Shown one piece after another: positions 34,364 through 38,792 of a stretch of 49,124 nt of DNA (the stretch's first letter is position 1; each line of letters begins with the position of its first letter). The notes under the pieces are model-generated. The model was not told the origin of the DNA. It saw only the letters and a program-made list of their open reading frames with translations, and searched no databases. The DNA comes from a phage. Location of the stretch: the sequence record PZ715802.1; one strand, written 5' to 3'. The position numbers and the translations under genes are program-made.

Positions 34364-34690
34364 ATGAAAAAGCTTTTAGCAGCAATCTTATTATCAGCAA
34401 GCTTTTCAGTAAATGCAGACTCTTGCAACAATATCATTCTTTATGCAATGAATAACGCAAAAGATAATTGGGGTTCAGAAGCAAGATTAGTTTCTCAACC
34501 TATGCATGTATCAATTTACAAGGATACATGCAAGACAGCAATAACAGCAAAAGGTGTTATAAGCAAAGATGACTTTTACGAAGGAATAAAAAACGGATCA
34601 AGCGCGGTGCTTGAAAAGCATGGTTATATTGATGCGGCAGATGTAAATTCTTTGGTAGCAAAAATTTCATACGATTTCGCAACAGAATAA
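34364..34690 (+). CDS. secreted small protein with signal peptide
   Basis: internal ATG of track ORF 34220-34690 with GGAGAAA RBS; N-terminus MKKLLAAILLSASFSVNA then DSC. Confidence 0.5.
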   Translation: MKKLLAAILLSASFSVNADSCNNIILYAMNNAKDNWGSEARLVSQPMHVSIYKDTCKTAITAKGVISKDDFYEGIKNGSSAVLEKHGYIDAADVNSLVAKISYDFATE

Positions 34691-35446: not shown

Positions 35447-35677
35447 ATGAGCATTCGATTAGCCGATCACATGAAATGGGATTTATTTGTTGGTATGACA
35501 ATTCGCTTACTTGATAAGCATGGTTATAACGCTGATAAAATGGAGTTGATAAACTGCCTGGATATGACATTTGACGAAATAAAAGTTGCGCCTTTGTACA
35601 TGTGGGAAAGAAAAATTGAGCACGACCTGATACAATACAAACGCAGAGAGGGCGCACGATTTTTCAATGTGAAATAG
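35447..35677 (+). CDS. hypothetical protein
   Basis: ORF track; stop codon is TAG of box. Confidence 0.45.
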   Translation: MSIRLADHMKWDLFVGMTIRLLDKHGYNADKMELINCLDMTFDEIKVAPLYMWERKIEHDLIQYKRREGARFFNVK

Positions 35678-35717
35678 CACTTTTTGTTAAAACCCGCTTC
35701 GGCGGGTTTTGTATTAT
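35675..35717 (+). promoter_or_regulatory. composite box element: TAGCActtttTGTTA, 22 nt, TATTAT
   Basis: palindrome 35675-35689; spacer hairpin cccgc/gcggg followed by TTTT also looks terminator-like. Confidence 0.55.
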
Positions 35718-35747
35718 GTGCTTAACGGAGAACAAGAGGATTCAAAA

Positions 35748-35912
35748 ATGAAAATTGTAAACGTTGAATACTTAAAAGATGCGCAATGGCTGGCTAAAGA
35801 ATCATTGTTTATGCTTGATCGCAAACATCCAAAAGTAATTGCACAAATACTTTGGAATGACGCAATGGAGTTACTTAAAAAGGCTTACGGTTATGAAAGT
35901 GACAAAAGGTAA
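35748..35912 (+). CDS. hypothetical small protein
   Basis: internal ATG of track ORF 35709-35912 downstream of box and AGAGGA-like RBS. Confidence 0.4.
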   Translation: MKIVNVEYLKDAQWLAKESLFMLDRKHPKVIAQILWNDAMELLKKAYGYESDKR

Positions 35913-36135
35913 AAAGGAAACTTGGGAGTTAGCGAAAAAAGGCGGTCTTGATGAAGGGATCGCCAAAATAGCGCAATATTTCGATATCAAAGACGTGTGC
36001 GTTATTGTCGGTGATGAAATGGCATATGTGGATGAAAAGCCGCACAAGGTTCATCGCGTTCCGGCAATTCCGACAACAATCGACTATAAAGAAGTGATCA
36101 ACAAAACAAAAGAGCAAAGGAAATATTACAAGTGA
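35893..36135 (+). CDS. hypothetical protein (start uncertain)
   Basis: track ORF 35839-36135; chosen ATG overlaps previous gene by 20 nt; weak RBS. Confidence 0.3.
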   Translation: MKVTKGKKETWELAKKGGLDEGIAKIAQYFDIKDVCVIVGDEMAYVDEKPHKVHRVPAIPTTIDYKEVINKTKEQRKYYK

Positions 36136-36228
36136 AAACAATTAAATTCATGTTTGCTGTTATCTTGCCGCCAATGCTGGCATGGTTTATGATGTACGCC
36201 GTTGTTATGAAATAAGAGGATTTGTGAA

Positions 36229-37344
36229 ATGAGTGCAGCAAAAATTACTGACGAACAACTTATAGCAGAAAGGGCGGCAGGTTTAAAACTGCGTGAGATT
36301 GCGGAAAAATACGGAATGAGCTTGCGCCAGGTTGAGCACCGTCACAGCAAATTGGCTAAGCGTGGCGAAATCTCAACTATCGGATCACCTGGATTTGCTG
36401 TAATTGGTGAATCACAGCTTAAACGTGCAAATGGTGAGGTTGTAATGACCTGGACTAAAACGCACAAAGACAAAGCGCAATTAGATGCAATAATGCAAGC
36501 GGCTATGGCTGCATTTTCGGAAGAATTGCCACGAGTAGAACCGCAACCGGAAAAGATTGTTGACTATTCGAAAACTCTTGCGCTATATCCGATCTTTGAT
36601 ATTCACATTGGCGCAATGGCGCACAAGCATGAAAGCGGTGAGAATTACGACACGGCGACGGCAGAAAAGATCATGAATGAATTCTTTGATTATGCCGTCG
36701 ATAAAGCACCGAATAGCGAAAAGGCTGTATTGCTGATTGGTGGTGATATGATTCACAGTGACGGTCTGGAGGCTGTAACACCTGCAAGCGGTCACGTTTT
36801 GGATCAGGATTCGCGATATGCGAAACTTGTTTATGTTGCCATTCGAGCCACGCGCAGAGCAGTAAGCCGAATGCTGGAAAAACATAAAGAGGTTGAATTG
36901 CAGATCATTGAAGGTAATCACGACCAATCAGGAATGATCTGGCTACGTGCTGCAATGGCGGCGGCGTATGAGAATGAGCCACGCGTAAAGGTTGATGTTT
37001 CTCCGCGCGTCGTGCATCACACTCAATATGGTAAAACTTTCCTAGCTTATCATCATGGTCACACTGTACGCAAGCCAGAAACGCTTTTAATGATGTGTGC
37101 AGCGGATTGGCGGGAAGATTTCGGAAACTCCAATTCAATGTATGCGCATGTAGGGCATTGGCATCACCAGACTGTTACAGAAACGAGCCTTGGCATTGTT
37201 GAGGTGCATAACACTATGGCAGCAAAAGACGCTTACGCCGCGCGTGGTGGCTGGCGTTCACGTCGCAGGGCGGCGGTAATTATTTATGATAAGGAATATG
37301 GCGAAATAGGGCGGTTTATGTTTTACCCCGAAATGATTGCTTAA
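36229..37344 (+). CDS. metallophosphoesterase (calcineurin-like) with N-terminal HTH
   Basis: ORF track; AGAGGA RBS; N-terminal LKLREIAEKYGMSLRQV; phosphoesterase motifs DIHIG, GGDMIHSD, GNHD, HHGH. Confidence 0.6.
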   Translation: MSAAKITDEQLIAERAAGLKLREIAEKYGMSLRQVEHRHSKLAKRGEISTIGSPGFAVIGESQLKRANGEVVMTWTKTHKDKAQLDAIMQAAMAAFSEELPRVEPQPEKIVDYSKTLALYPIFDIHIGAMAHKHESGENYDTATAEKIMNEFFDYAVDKAPNSEKAVLLIGGDMIHSDGLEAVTPASGHVLDQDSRYAKLVYVAIRATRRAVSRMLEKHKEVELQIIEGNHDQSGMIWLRAAMAAAYENEPRVKVDVSPRVVHHTQYGKTFLAYHHGHTVRKPETLLMMCAADWREDFGNSNSMYAHVGHWHHQTVTETSLGIVEVHNTMAAKDAYAARGGWRSRRRAAVIIYDKEYGEIGRFMFYPEMIA

Positions 37345-37357
37345 TTAAATTATCAAG

Positions 37358-37392
37358 AAAAAGGCTGGCTAAGTGCTGGCCTTTTTTTGTTT
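37358..37392 (+). terminator. hairpin terminator candidate
   Basis: aaaaaggc...gccttttttt inverted repeat with 13-nt loop. Confidence 0.4.
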
Positions 37393-37455
37393 TTGTGGTT
37401 AACATATTCACACTAATTTTGGCATTGACATTTTAATTTAATTGAGGATCAGATT

Positions 37456-37680
37456 ATGAGAGACTTTCTTTTAATGGCGCAAAACTCTTTCGGAGGTGCA
37501 ACGGTAGTTGGATCTTTTACTGGTGAGTTTTTGCTTGCACTTGCTACGTTTATTTTGTTCGCTATTTTCGGCTGTTGGGGCGCATGGCTGAAATGGCGTG
37601 ATAGTAAAGCGATCCGAGAGGCTTTAGATTCAGGGGATTTAAAAACGGCGCTTAATCTACGGCAGAAAGAGAGGGTATAA
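37456..37680 (+). CDS. holin (by position and hydrophobicity)
   Basis: ORF track; GAGGA RBS; TM segment [21 protein letters not shown]; immediately upstream of endolysin. Confidence 0.55.
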
Positions 37681-38171
37681 TGACAATCAAGAAAGGTATA
37701 GCCGCCACCGTCACAGGGGCGGCTTTAATGTTGGCATCGCCTTTGATTGAAGAAATTGAAGGCGTAAAGTATAAGCCTTACAAGGATATTGCGGGGATCT
37801 GGACTGTATGCCACGGCATTACAGGAAAGGATGTGATTCTTGGAAAGGAATATACCAGGCGAGAATGTGACGCGCTATTAGCAAAGCATATGAAAGTAGC
37901 GGCTGACGCTGTTGATAAGGCGGTTAAGGTTGAAATTCCTTTATCAATGCGAGCGGCTCTATACTCATTCACTTTTAATGCTGGTACTGGCGCGTTTCGT
38001 AAGTCAACCATGCTGAAAAAGATCAACAATGGTGATCTATGGGGCGGTTGTGGTGAGCTATGGAACTGGACATATTACCGTAACCCTAAAACTGGTAAAA
38101 AGGAAAAATCAAGAGGATTGAAGAACCGCCGCGCCGTCGAATATAAATATTGCGTAAGGGATCTTAAATGA
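37680..38171 (+). CDS. SAR endolysin (T4-type lysozyme)
   Basis: start overlaps holin stop; N-terminal weakly hydrophobic [18 protein letters not shown]; E-x8-D-x5-T catalytic spacing. Confidence 0.8.
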
Positions 38172-38557
38172 AAAAGAAATTAATGGCTGTTTTGATGTGC
38201 GTTATGCTTTCCGGTTGTTCTGCGTCGAGCTTGTTACCTGGCCTGATTGGTAGCAAGCCCGATATAACAGCACAGGCAGGATCTGAAAATGTGAAACAAA
38301 CTGTTGGTGTAACTGCAAAGCATGATACATCAAGCAATCAGGAAACCACATTTAAAGAATCGGCTGTTGGAAAGGTTGACACGTCGAATAAAAAACAGGT
38401 GAGCACTTCAAGCATTAAGGCAGATAACATCACAGCGGAAAGAATAGAGATCCGAAACAATGATGGTCTTAATGTTCCGGCAATCGCAATGGGTATATTG
38501 ATGTTTATTGCTGGTATGCTGGCAGGGTGGGCACTTAAACGTAACAAGGCGGCATAA
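38168..38557 (+). CDS. unimolecular spanin
   Basis: ATGA overlap with endolysin; lipobox LSGC at N-terminus and C-terminal [21 protein letters not shown], the architecture described for T1 gp11. Confidence 0.75.
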
Positions 38558-38573
38558 GCCGCCTTTTCTTTTA
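38547..38573. terminator. hairpin terminator at junction of convergent blocks
   Basis: stem aaggcggc/gccgcctt followed by TTCTTTT. Confidence 0.5.
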
Positions 38574-38792
38574 AAAAATATTGTTCATTAAGTCTTGGAA
38601 ACTATTACCGCTATAATCCTTTTCCTCAATAATGTGAGCGCCTTTCTTTTTTATATCCCACAGCATTTTTTCATATTCGCAGCGGTTAATGCCAAACGTA
38701 CTACCATCATCAACATATGCGGTTCCTTTGTTGTTGAAAACGTCAAATGTAACATTAACAACGCGAATTGTTTTGATAGTGCATTTTAACAT
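38571..38792 (-). CDS. hypothetical protein
   Basis: ORF track; AAAGGA RBS; box element upstream. Confidence 0.45.
   Translation of the reverse strand: MLKCTIKTIRVVNVTFDVFNNKGTAYVDDGSTFGINRCEYEKMLWDIKKKGAHIIEEKDYSGNSFQDLMNNIF

What the first reader, a model, noticed from the sequence alone, without database searches (positions are those of the whole stretch)
36229..37344. Fusion of an HTH DNA-binding domain to a calcineurin-like metallophosphoesterase
The N-terminus has an HTH-like segment and the remainder has the ordered metal-binding motifs D.H, GD...D, GNHD, HH of protein phosphatase / Mre11-type phosphoesterases. A DNA-tethered phosphoesterase directly upstream of the lysis cassette is unusual. 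It could be a regulatory phosphatase, a nuclease, or an enzyme that degrades nucleotide second messengers.
Basis: partly seen in the sequence, partly recalled or inferred. Interest (0 to 1): 0.55.

Follow-up and report, generated by a model that had tools for sequence, protein, structure and literature searches.

The report
HTH-fused phage metallophosphoesterase (TLS gp66)
This gene of a T1-like phage does encode a DNA-binding-type domain fused to a metal-dependent phosphoesterase, but it is a widespread, already catalogued and biochemically untested phage protein, most likely a host-toxic DNase, and its place next to the lysis genes is incidental.

Summary
The ORF 36229-37344 (+), 371 aa, is real. 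The window is a Tlsvirus (T1-like) genome and the gene is the orthologue of TLS gene 66 (91% nt), U136B_067 and, at 58% aa identity, Bas1 bas01_0050. It matches PHROG 704 'DNA repair exonuclease' (E 3e-149).

The fusion is not unusual. There are over 4,500 protein clusters and over 2,000 phage genomes, and all 140 full-length representatives aligned carry the N-terminal extension.

The position next to the lysis genes is shared by the T1-like phages examined (U136B, Bas1) but not by homologues in other phage groups. A strong terminator separates the gene from the holin.

Motif forms and fold neighbours argue against a lambda-type protein phosphatase and favour a stand-alone DNA nuclease, with no Rad50 partner and no capping domain.

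My best reading is an HTH-guided DNase, possibly the unidentified T1/TLS host-chromosome-degrading function, analogous to T5 A1. No biochemistry exists.

The parts
36214..36219 (+). Shine-Dalgarno-like AAGAGG, 9 nt before the ATG
   Evidence: sequence read
36229..37344 (+). Complete ORF, 371 aa. Orthologue of TLS gene 66, U136B_067 and bas01_0050. Member of PHROG 704.
36250..36360 (+). N-terminal basic three-helix HTH domain (aa 8-44), of sigma-70 region 4 / LuxR-GerE / homeodomain-like type
36394..36522 (+). Conserved beta-hairpin (aa 56-80, including near-invariant G69 and W75) plus helix 82-98. It links the HTH to the catalytic domain; its role is unknown.
36568..37323 (+). Metallophosphoesterase catalytic domain (aa 114-365)
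36598..36606 (+). Motif I, D124-x-H126 (DIH; the family form is DxHxG)
36742..36762 (+). Motif II, G172-D173-x-x-H176-x-D178
36778..36816 (+). Family-specific loop T184-P-A-S-G-H189-V-L191-D192-Q-D194-S-R196. T184 is 120/120 and R196 117/120. pLDDT is lower here (about 73-75).
36913..36924 (+). Motif III, G229-N230-H231-D232
37051..37062 (+). Motif IV, H275-H276-G277-H278
37153..37167 (+). Motif V, G309-H310-W-H312-H313
37356..37388 (+). Intrinsic-terminator-like hairpin (14 pairs, then a T run) between this gene and the holin gene (37456-37680)

Best explanation
The gene encodes a stand-alone, two-metal DNA nuclease of the metallophosphoesterase superfamily. Its nearest solved folds are PolD-DP1, Mre11 and SbcD.

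A basic N-terminal HTH domain, joined through a conserved beta-hairpin and helix, would hold the enzyme on DNA. It is an accessory gene, dispensable in the laboratory, that sits in the replication/recombination/nucleotide-metabolism gene cluster of the phage.

Its most probable target is the host chromosome. T1 and TLS are known to degrade the chromosome for nucleotide re-use, by a gene product that has not been identified. The protein would then be a functional analogue of T5 A1. Its activity, or the DNA products it makes, would be what makes T1-like phages visible to the DRT7/UG10 defence.

Shown here: the ORF, the domain architecture, conservation of all metal ligands, the fold, the lack of a Rad50 partner and of a capping domain, the variable genomic context, and the terminator before the holin.

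Shown in the literature for the 58%-identical, syntenic Bas1 orthologue: dispensability, toxicity in E. coli, and being the gene mutated in DRT7 escapers.

Inferred: DNA as the substrate, the host chromosome as the target, and DNA binding by the HTH.
For: - Catalytic residues are invariant across the family.
- Motif I (DxHxG) and motif III (GNHD) have the SbcD form, not the lambda phosphatase form.
- The N-terminal extension is universal. Where tested it matches HTH models, and it is basic, with median pI 9.2 against about 6 for the rest.
- Neighbours are replication, recombination or nucleotide-metabolism genes in most of the phages examined.
- Bas1 escapers of DRT7 carry missense or frameshift mutations in bas01_0050. 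Lambda escapers hit gam. bas01_0050 expression is toxic in E. coli (bioRxiv 10.64898/2026.02.16.706125). Orthology is shown.
- T1 and TLS degrade host DNA, and the responsible gene is unidentified (PMC11447400).
- T5 A1, a predicted metallo-phosphatase with the same structural neighbours, is essential and sufficient for chromosome digestion and is toxic (bioRxiv 10.64898/2026.04.02.716235).
- Drexlerviridae, like T5-like phages, give a 'mutual destruction' phenotype from toxic phage products when infection is stalled (PMC13250531).
Against: - No enzymatic assay exists for any member of the family.
- Specific kinship with T5 A1 is unproven. hhalign gives Prob 43%, confident only around motif III, and motifs I and II do not line up.
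- The window also encodes other candidate host-DNA nucleases: a RecE-like exonuclease, a VRR-NUC-like protein and an HNH endonuclease.
- How the phage's own DNA would be spared is unexplained.
- Some homologues lie among nucleotide-metabolism genes or tail genes.
- Toxicity could have causes other than DNA cleavage.
Confidence: 0.5

Rival explanations
1. It is a nuclease or end-binding factor that acts on phage DNA rather than host DNA. It would process or protect the ends of linear or concatemeric phage DNA for recombination-dependent replication, or counter RecBCD as lambda Gam does.
For: - It is structurally close to Mre11, SbcD and DP1.
- It is encoded in the same genome as RecE-like, Erf-like and SSB genes, or next to ERF, YqaJ or DnaB in prophages.
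- In the DRT7 escape screen it is the T1-like counterpart of lambda gam, a RecBCD inhibitor.
Against: - There is no Rad50/SbcC partner and no capping domain.
- Toxicity on its own in uninfected E. coli fits a host-directed activity better.
- It is dispensable in Bas1.
Confidence: 0.15
2. It is a nucleotide-directed phosphodiesterase or phosphatase. It would act in dNTP/dNMP pool remodelling, or degrade cyclic (oligo)nucleotide immune signals. The HTH would serve regulation or localisation.
For: - Fold neighbours include MJ0936, Rv0805, GpdQ, the Ap4A hydrolase Spr1479 and 5'-nucleotidases.
- In some phages the gene lies next to thymidylate synthase, dCMP deaminase, dGTP_diPhyd_N, HD_4 or Thy1/RNR genes.
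Against: - A universal basic HTH extension is not explained by a small-molecule substrate.
- DRT7, as characterised in that preprint, synthesises DNA; no nucleotide second messenger is described there.
- There is no PADLOC hit, and the anti-defence phosphodiesterases recalled from general knowledge (Acb1, Apyc1) have other folds.
- No evidence points to a cyclic-nucleotide substrate.
Confidence: 0.15
3. It is a DNA-binding transcription regulator or antiterminator that controls the adjacent lysis (late) genes. The phosphoesterase domain would act as a sensor or accessory domain.
For: - It has an HTH of sigma-70 region 4 / LuxR type.
- In the window it sits immediately before a strong terminator and the holin-endolysin-spanin cassette. 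This resembles the lambda arrangement NinI-Q-(tR')-S-R-Rz.
Against: - This synteny is seen only in the T1-like phages examined, not in other groups.
- Frameshift mutants of the Bas1 orthologue form plaques, so lysis gene expression does not depend on it.
- Complete conservation of the catalytic residues argues for an enzyme.
Confidence: 0.05
4. It is a regulatory Ser/Thr/Tyr protein phosphatase like lambda NinI (lambda-PPase).
For: - It belongs to the same superfamily.
- In a Microbulbifer prophage it follows NinG and precedes the lysis genes, the slot that NinI occupies in lambda.
Against: - It lacks the GDxHG, GDxVDRG and GNHE signatures seen in lambda NinI.
- hhalign against NinI gives Prob 0.4%.
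- One phage contig carries both this protein and a separate NinI-sized PF00149 protein.
Confidence: 0.03

Closest known systems
TLS gene 66 ('proof-reading exonuclease'), U136B_067 ('putative phosphoesterase'), Bas1 bas01_0050; PHROG 704 'DNA repair exonuclease'
   Same: These are orthologues. TLS is 91.4% nt identical. Identity to Bas1 is 58% aa over the full length, with the same synteny. The PHROG 704 match is full length, E 2.7e-149.
   Different: There is no material difference. The window protein is 371 aa, against 374 aa in several close relatives. None of these proteins has been characterised biochemically.
Phage T5 A1 (pre-early host-DNA-degradation and 'DNA transfer' protein; PHROG 1745)
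   Same: - It is a phage metallophosphoesterase missed by Pfam, with all motifs invariant in its family.
- The T5 preprint describes the same kinds of structural neighbours for it: DSB-repair nucleases and polymerase proofreading nucleases.
- It is toxic when expressed alone.
- It is implicated as a trigger of a reverse-transcriptase-based defence (retron Eco2), as bas01_0050 is for DRT7.
- Motif III and the helix after it are alike ('GNHDxxSxWL' against 'SNHDLALxRWL').
   Different: - It is 556 aa, with a long, unrelated N-terminal region.
- It is essential in T5 and also needed for second-step DNA transfer.
- It belongs to a different PHROG.
- Profile-profile Prob is only 43%, and motifs I and II are out of register.
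- T5 A1 was not among the 50 BFVD matches shown.
Mre11 / SbcD double-strand-break nucleases
   Different: - There is no capping domain; only 45-75 residues follow motif V across the family.
- No Rad50/SbcC ATPase gene is in the genome.
- There is no sequence-level membership (NCBIfam SbcD_rel_arch 12.6 bits against a cut-off of 115; hhalign Prob 2.6%).
- It has an N-terminal HTH instead.
Archaeal PolD small subunit DP1 (3'-5' proofreading exonuclease)
   Different: - Identity is 10-14%.
- No DP2-type polymerase partner is present, and the annotated Tlsvirus genome lists no DNA polymerase gene.
- The name 'proof-reading exonuclease' therefore transfers a resemblance in fold, not a demonstrated role.
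Lambda NinI (lambda Ser/Thr protein phosphatase)
   Same: It is in the same superfamily. It occupies a comparable slot at the end of the early region, before the late and lysis genes.
   Different: The motif signatures differ. It is distant in fold searches. NinI is 221 aa with no HTH. The two types co-occur on one phage contig.

Membership tests
Calcineurin-like metallophosphoesterase (MPE) superfamily | Five ordered motifs that supply the dinuclear-metal ligands: DxH, GDxx(D/H), GNH(D/E), H, GHxH | tested here: met
   D124/H126, D173, N230/H231, H276 and H310/H312 are present. They are kept in 115-120 of 120 relatives.
Calcineurin-like metallophosphoesterase (MPE) superfamily | Beta-sandwich MPE fold, with the motifs at the C-terminal ends of the strands | tested here: met
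Calcineurin-like metallophosphoesterase (MPE) superfamily | Match to the curated Pfam models PF00149 or PF12850 | tested here: not met
   The window protein gives no hit even at E<=10. Of 120 relatives, 26 (PF00149) and 19 (PF12850) reach E<=0.01. The clade is divergent, and membership rests on motifs and fold.
Calcineurin-like metallophosphoesterase (MPE) superfamily | Metal-dependent phosphoester hydrolysis | not testable with these tools
   This needs purified protein.
Mre11/SbcD nuclease family | DNA-capping domain C-terminal to the MPE core | tested here: not met
   Only 58 residues follow motif V in the window protein, and 45-75 in 140 relatives. The model shows no extra domain.
Mre11/SbcD nuclease family | Partner Rad50/SbcC SMC-like ATPase | tested here: not met
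   The ORF map shows no such ORF in the whole 49-kb genome. The annotated parts of U136B (from the SSB gene to the record's end) and the full Bas1 annotation list none either.
Mre11/SbcD nuclease family | Sequence-level family match | tested here: not met
   NCBIfam SbcD_rel_arch scores 12.6 bits against a cut-off of 115.2. hhalign against E. coli SbcD gives Prob 2.6%.
PPP-type protein phosphatase (lambda NinI) | GDxHG, GDxVDRG and GNHE signatures | tested here: not met
   The window has FDIHIG, GGDMIHSDG and GNHD. Lambda NinI has GDLHG, GDLVDRG and GNHE. hhalign Prob is 0.4%.
T5 A1-like host-DNA-degrading MPE (PHROG 1745) | Sequence or profile membership | tested here: inconclusive
   The two belong to different PHROGs. 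hhalign of the two family profiles gives Prob 43%, E 2.5e-4. Motifs III-V line up in register; motifs I and II do not.
T5 A1-like host-DNA-degrading MPE (PHROG 1745) | Sufficient for chromosome degradation; toxic when expressed alone | not testable with these tools
   Toxicity is reported for the orthologue bas01_0050. Chromosome degradation has not been examined for any member.
PHROG 704 / TLS gp66 orthologous group | Full-length profile match and conserved synteny in Drexlerviridae | tested here: met
   E 2.7e-149 over residues 4-370. Synteny is shared with U136B and Bas1. Nucleotide identity to TLS is 91.4%.
HTH DNA-binding domains (sigma-70 region 4 / LuxR-GerE / homeodomain-like) | Three-helix bundle that matches curated HTH models | tested here: inconclusive
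   The window protein is below threshold (HTH_23 18 bits against 24.6). The model has three helices. Relatives reach 1.5e-9 (Sigma70_r4_2) and 2.4e-8 (GerE). The family profile against PDB GerE gives E 0.027.
HTH DNA-binding domains (sigma-70 region 4 / LuxR-GerE / homeodomain-like) | Actual DNA binding | not testable with these tools
   Only indirect evidence is available: the N-terminal segment is basic (pI 9.7; family median 9.2).

The most novel reading that the evidence does not exclude
The HTH-metallophosphoesterase (TLS gp66 type) would be the long-unidentified function by which T1-like phages destroy the host chromosome. That phenotype was described in 1981 and was still unassigned in the 2024 TLS re-annotation. 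The protein would work as a Rad50-independent, HTH-targeted relative of Mre11/DP1 and as a functional analogue of T5 A1. Its DNA products or its activity would be the signal that activates the DRT7/UG10 reverse-transcriptase defence. The family (over 4,500 protein clusters) would then be a widespread host-takeover nuclease class that curated domain libraries do not capture.
Probability: 0.3. Interest if true: 0.6.

Novelty: already known. Interest (0 to 1): 0.35.

Why it matters
As a sequence feature it is ordinary. It is a catalogued gene found in every Drexlerviridae genome examined here and in thousands of other phages.

What remains open is its function, and three independent threads now meet on it:
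- T1 and TLS degrade host DNA through an unidentified gene.
- A different phage metallophosphoesterase, T5 A1, has just been shown to be sufficient for chromosome digestion.
- The Bas1 orthologue is toxic and determines sensitivity to DRT7.

A few simple experiments (a nuclease assay, nucleoid imaging on expression, a clean deletion) could assign a function to a very large phage protein family. They could also identify the trigger of an RT-based defence system.

Tried and rejected
- Sequence searches against solved structures returned only weak HTH hits, never an MPE. This held for the single protein and for the 120-member profile.
- hhalign of the family profile against single sequences of E. 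coli SbcD, lambda NinI, T5 A1 and T5 A2 was too insensitive or negative.
- The idea that the N-terminal HTH corresponds to T5 A2 fused to an A1-like enzyme found no support.
- A profile of nine A1 homologues against the family profile gave only Prob 43%. Specific kinship with A1 is left open.
- I looked for a conserved partner gene in 10 neighbourhoods (Jersey, Vibrio BUCT_X002, roseophage EE36P1, E. coli and Microbulbifer prophages, four metagenomic contigs, Bas1). None was found.
- PADLOC gave no hit, and NCBIfam gave only sub-threshold hits.
- The DRT7 preprint and its supplement do not give the positions of the Bas1 escape mutations. I could not tell which domain they hit.
- Several literature searches returned nothing relevant.
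- The antiterminator-for-lysis idea was considered and set aside (non-conserved synteny; viable frameshift mutants).
Full report
**What is there**

The window holds one ORF at 36229..37344 on the + strand, with an ATG start and 371 codons. AAGAGG lies 9 nt upstream of the start. The minus-strand ORFs that overlap it (36583-36927 and others) have no support and look like shadow ORFs.

The whole window is a roughly 49-kb Tlsvirus genome (Drexlerviridae, Tempevirinae). The region 35500-38600 is about 95% identical to Escherichia phage U136B, Salmonella phage phSE-2 and Citrobacter phage Stevie.

The gene corresponds to:
- U136B_067, 'putative phosphoesterase'.
- TLS gene 66, at 91.4% nt identity. 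It was re-annotated in 2024 as 'proof-reading exonuclease' and is called 'DNA repair exonuclease' in RefSeq.

It matches PHROG 704 'DNA repair exonuclease' over its full length at E 2.7e-149.

**Checking the observation: the phosphoesterase**

The five metallophosphoesterase motifs are present in order:
- I: D124-I-H126.
- II: G172-D173-M-I-H176-S-D178.
- III: G229-N230-H231-D232.
- IV: H275-H276-G-H278.
- V: G309-H310-W-H312-H313.

Pfam's Metallophos models do not hit this protein even at E<=10. No solved structure is found by sequence. The call therefore needed independent support, and it got it from three sources:
- A phmmer search of 1.84 billion cluster representatives found 4,574 clusters at E<=1e-3 and 997 at E<=1e-30.
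- In an alignment of 120 of these (30-58% identity), D124, H126, D173, N230, H231, H276 and H312 are invariant. H310 is 115/120 and H176 is 117/120.
- An AlphaFold2 model built on a 114-sequence alignment has mean pLDDT 87.9 and pTM 0.74. It places every motif at the C-terminal end of a beta-strand.

**Checking the observation: the HTH**

For the window protein alone the evidence is below threshold:
- Pfam HTH_23 at E 0.0025, 18 bits against a gathering score of 24.6.
- IscR at E 0.003.
- NCBIfam sigma70-ECF at 0.0099.

The model shows three helices at 8-16, 21-28 and 32-44. The segment is basic, pI 9.7.

Among 120 relatives many HTH models are hit significantly: HTH_1 in 23, HTH_8 in 15, HTH_50 in 13, HTH_23 in 12 and Sigma70_r4_2 in 11 (best 1.5e-9), with GerE reaching 2.4e-8. 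The family profile aligns to GerE with the typical 'T.RQREVL......S...AA..LGVS..TV' pattern.

All 140 full-length representatives have at least 89 residues before the first catalytic strand, with a median of 132. The fusion is therefore a property of the whole family.

Between the HTH and the enzyme lies a conserved beta-hairpin (aa 56-80, with near-invariant G69 and W75) and a helix (82-98). Their role is unknown.

**Is it unusual, and does the lysis cassette matter?**

No. tblastn finds the protein in 2,038 phage records: Escherichia, Klebsiella, Salmonella, Vibrio, Campylobacter, Flavobacterium, roseophages and others. It also occurs in prophages.

The gene sits before holin-endolysin-spanin in the T1-like phages examined (U136B, Bas1). 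Elsewhere it lies:
- Between tail genes and an antirepressor (Jersey; a similar case on a metagenomic contig).
- After SSB (Vibrio phage).
- After thymidylate synthase (N4-like roseophage).
- Between an ANT/Bro gene and a DnaB-type helicase in E. coli lambdoid prophages.
- After NinG and before the lysis genes in a Microbulbifer prophage.
- Near a beta-clamp, PhoH, Thy1, dCMP deaminase or HD_4.

No partner gene is conserved. In the window a 14-pair hairpin followed by a T run (37356-37388) separates the gene from the holin. The gene simply ends the early/middle transcription unit. Lambda NinI occupies a comparable slot.

**Which kind of phosphoesterase?**

A lambda-type protein phosphatase is disfavoured for these reasons:
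- Lambda NinI reads GDLHG, GDLVDRG and GNHE. This protein reads FDIHIG, GGDMIHSDG and GNHD.
- E. coli SbcD reads SDWHLG, AGDVFD and GNHD, which is closer to this protein for motifs I and III.
- One phage contig carries both this protein and a separate NinI-sized PF00149 protein.

It is not an Mre11/SbcD family member either:
- There is no capping domain; only 45-75 residues follow motif V.
- There is no Rad50/SbcC gene in the genome.
- There is no sequence-level match.

It works like a nuclease-clade MPE but belongs to its own clade. That clade also has a family-specific loop, T184-P-x-S-G-H-x-L-D-x-D-x-R196, between motifs II and III.

**Evidence from the literature**

- *DRT7/UG10 preprint* (bioRxiv 10.64898/2026.02.16.706125).
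  - Bas1 mutants that escape DRT7 carry missense or frameshift mutations in bas01_0050, 'putatively a nucleic acid-targeting phosphoesterase'. Lambda escapers hit gam.
  - Expression of bas01_0050 from pBAD33 was toxic in E. coli.
  - I verified that bas01_0050 is the orthologue: 58% identity over the full length, E 2e-161, in the same position between the helicase block and the lysis genes.
  - The protein is therefore dispensable, harmful to the host on its own, and the determinant of DRT7 sensitivity.
- *TLS re-annotation* (PMC11447400).
  - T1 and TLS enzymatically degrade the host genome and re-use the nucleotides. The paper cites Roberts & Drexler 1981 and Christensen et al. 1981.
  - The responsible early gene product has not been identified.
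- *T5 preprint* (bioRxiv 10.64898/2026.04.02.716235).
  - The predicted metallo-phosphatase A1 is essential and sufficient for chromosome digestion in vivo and is toxic.
  - It shares structural features with DSB-repair nucleases and polymerase proofreading nucleases. These are the same neighbours I obtained for this protein.
  - A1 is also reported as a trigger of retron Eco2 (PMC12916289).
- *Daunorubicin study* (PMC13250531).
  - Drexlerviridae (including Tempevirinae) and T5-like phages both give an abortive-infection-like 'mutual destruction' phenotype when infection is stalled by daunorubicin.
  - The paper attributes this phenotype to toxic phage products, and works out the detail for T5-like phages.

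**Relation to T5 A1**

A1 has no Pfam hit. An alignment of nine A1 homologues shows invariant GDxH, HD, SNHD, HG and GHxH motifs.

Profile-profile comparison with this family gives Prob 43%, E 2.5e-4, confident only around motif III ('GNHDxxSxWL' against 'SNHDLALxRWL'). With a permissive alignment, motifs III, IV and V and the C-terminal 'D..Y..G..S....ITY' stretch line up, but motifs I and II do not.

The two families belong to different PHROGs. T5 A1 was not among the 50 BFVD matches shown. I treat A1 as a functional analogue within the same superfamily, not as a demonstrated close relative.

**Best explanation and rivals**

The most likely reading (about 0.5) is an HTH-guided, Rad50-independent two-metal DNase whose probable target is the host chromosome. 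Host-chromosome degradation specifically I put at about 0.3.

Rivals:
- A phage-DNA end-processing or anti-RecBCD role (0.15). The parallel with gam favours it.
- A nucleotide or second-messenger phosphodiesterase (0.15). Some neighbourhoods and fold neighbours such as Rv0805 and MJ0936 favour it, but it does not explain the universal basic HTH.
- A regulator or antiterminator of the lysis genes (0.05). Non-conserved synteny and viable frameshift mutants contradict it.
- A lambda-type protein phosphatase (0.03).

What is shown is the architecture, the conservation, the fold, the absence of Mre11-type accessories and the context. The substrate, the target and DNA binding are all inferred.

**Verdict**

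The feature is already catalogued, so novelty is low. The residual interest is that this large family has no tested function. It is now a well-motivated candidate for the unidentified T1/TLS host-DNA-degrading activity and for the DRT7 trigger.

Noticed in passing
OR786094.1 (public record), matching window 35500-38574: 'Streptococcus phage MBBL140' (host given as S. agalactiae) is about 94% nt identical to this enterobacterial Tlsvirus region. Its protein is 97% identical to the window protein. The host label looks implausible; contamination or mislabelling is likely.
   Followed up: no
orthologues of window 36229-37344 in public records: The same protein carries contradictory names: 'DNA adenine methyltransferase' (STSR3), 'oxidoreductase' (Jerseyvirus EnJE1 and SS8), 'Rrf2 family transcriptional regulator' (E. 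coli), 'DNA polymerase II small subunit', 'proof-reading exonuclease' (TLS), and 'host specificity protein' (Salmonella phage 36). These are annotation-transfer artefacts.
   Followed up: partly
KR296690.1 / NC_029071.1, 35784-36897: In Salmonella phage 36 the orthologue is split into two or three annotated ORFs. This is either a frameshift or pseudogene, which would fit dispensability, or a sequencing error.
   Followed up: no
window 37345-37455 and the equivalent gap in relatives: Several relatives (SorkZaugg, CF1 DK-2017, LL5, Bas1) carry an HNH homing endonuclease between this gene and the holin. The window has none.
   Followed up: no
window 34364-34687 (+): A 108-aa ORF with a signal-peptide-like start (MKKLLAAILLSASFSVNADS) lies between the VRR-NUC-like gene and the Dam-like methylase gene. 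It has no PHROG match. It may be a secreted or periplasmic moron product.
   Followed up: no
L015:1709-3376 (-), phage T5 A1: T5 A1 has no Pfam hit. An alignment of nine homologues shows all five metallophosphoesterase motifs invariant in its C-terminal half. A1-like proteins also occur in Agrobacterium T7-like phages, Caulobacter jumbo phages and Flavobacterium phages.
   Followed up: partly
L014 422-1072 and 6001-7230: One metagenomic phage contig encodes both a 216-aa PF00149 Metallophos protein (NinI-sized) and the HTH-MPE. The two types are therefore not redundant.
   Followed up: no
window 35688-35711, 37356-37388, 38546-38565: Three strong terminator-like hairpins divide the + strand block into units: helicase to methylase plus one small ORF, then two small ORFs plus this gene, then the lysis cassette. 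The last hairpin is bidirectional. Terminator-like sites are enriched over shuffles (13 found against 5.1 expected).
   Followed up: partly
window 35709-35912 and 35839-36135 (+): Two small conserved ORFs of unknown function (PHROG 2180 and 2817; the second has a weak DUF7334 hit) lie directly upstream in the same transcription unit as the phosphoesterase. Whether either modulates the toxic enzyme is unknown.
   Followed up: no
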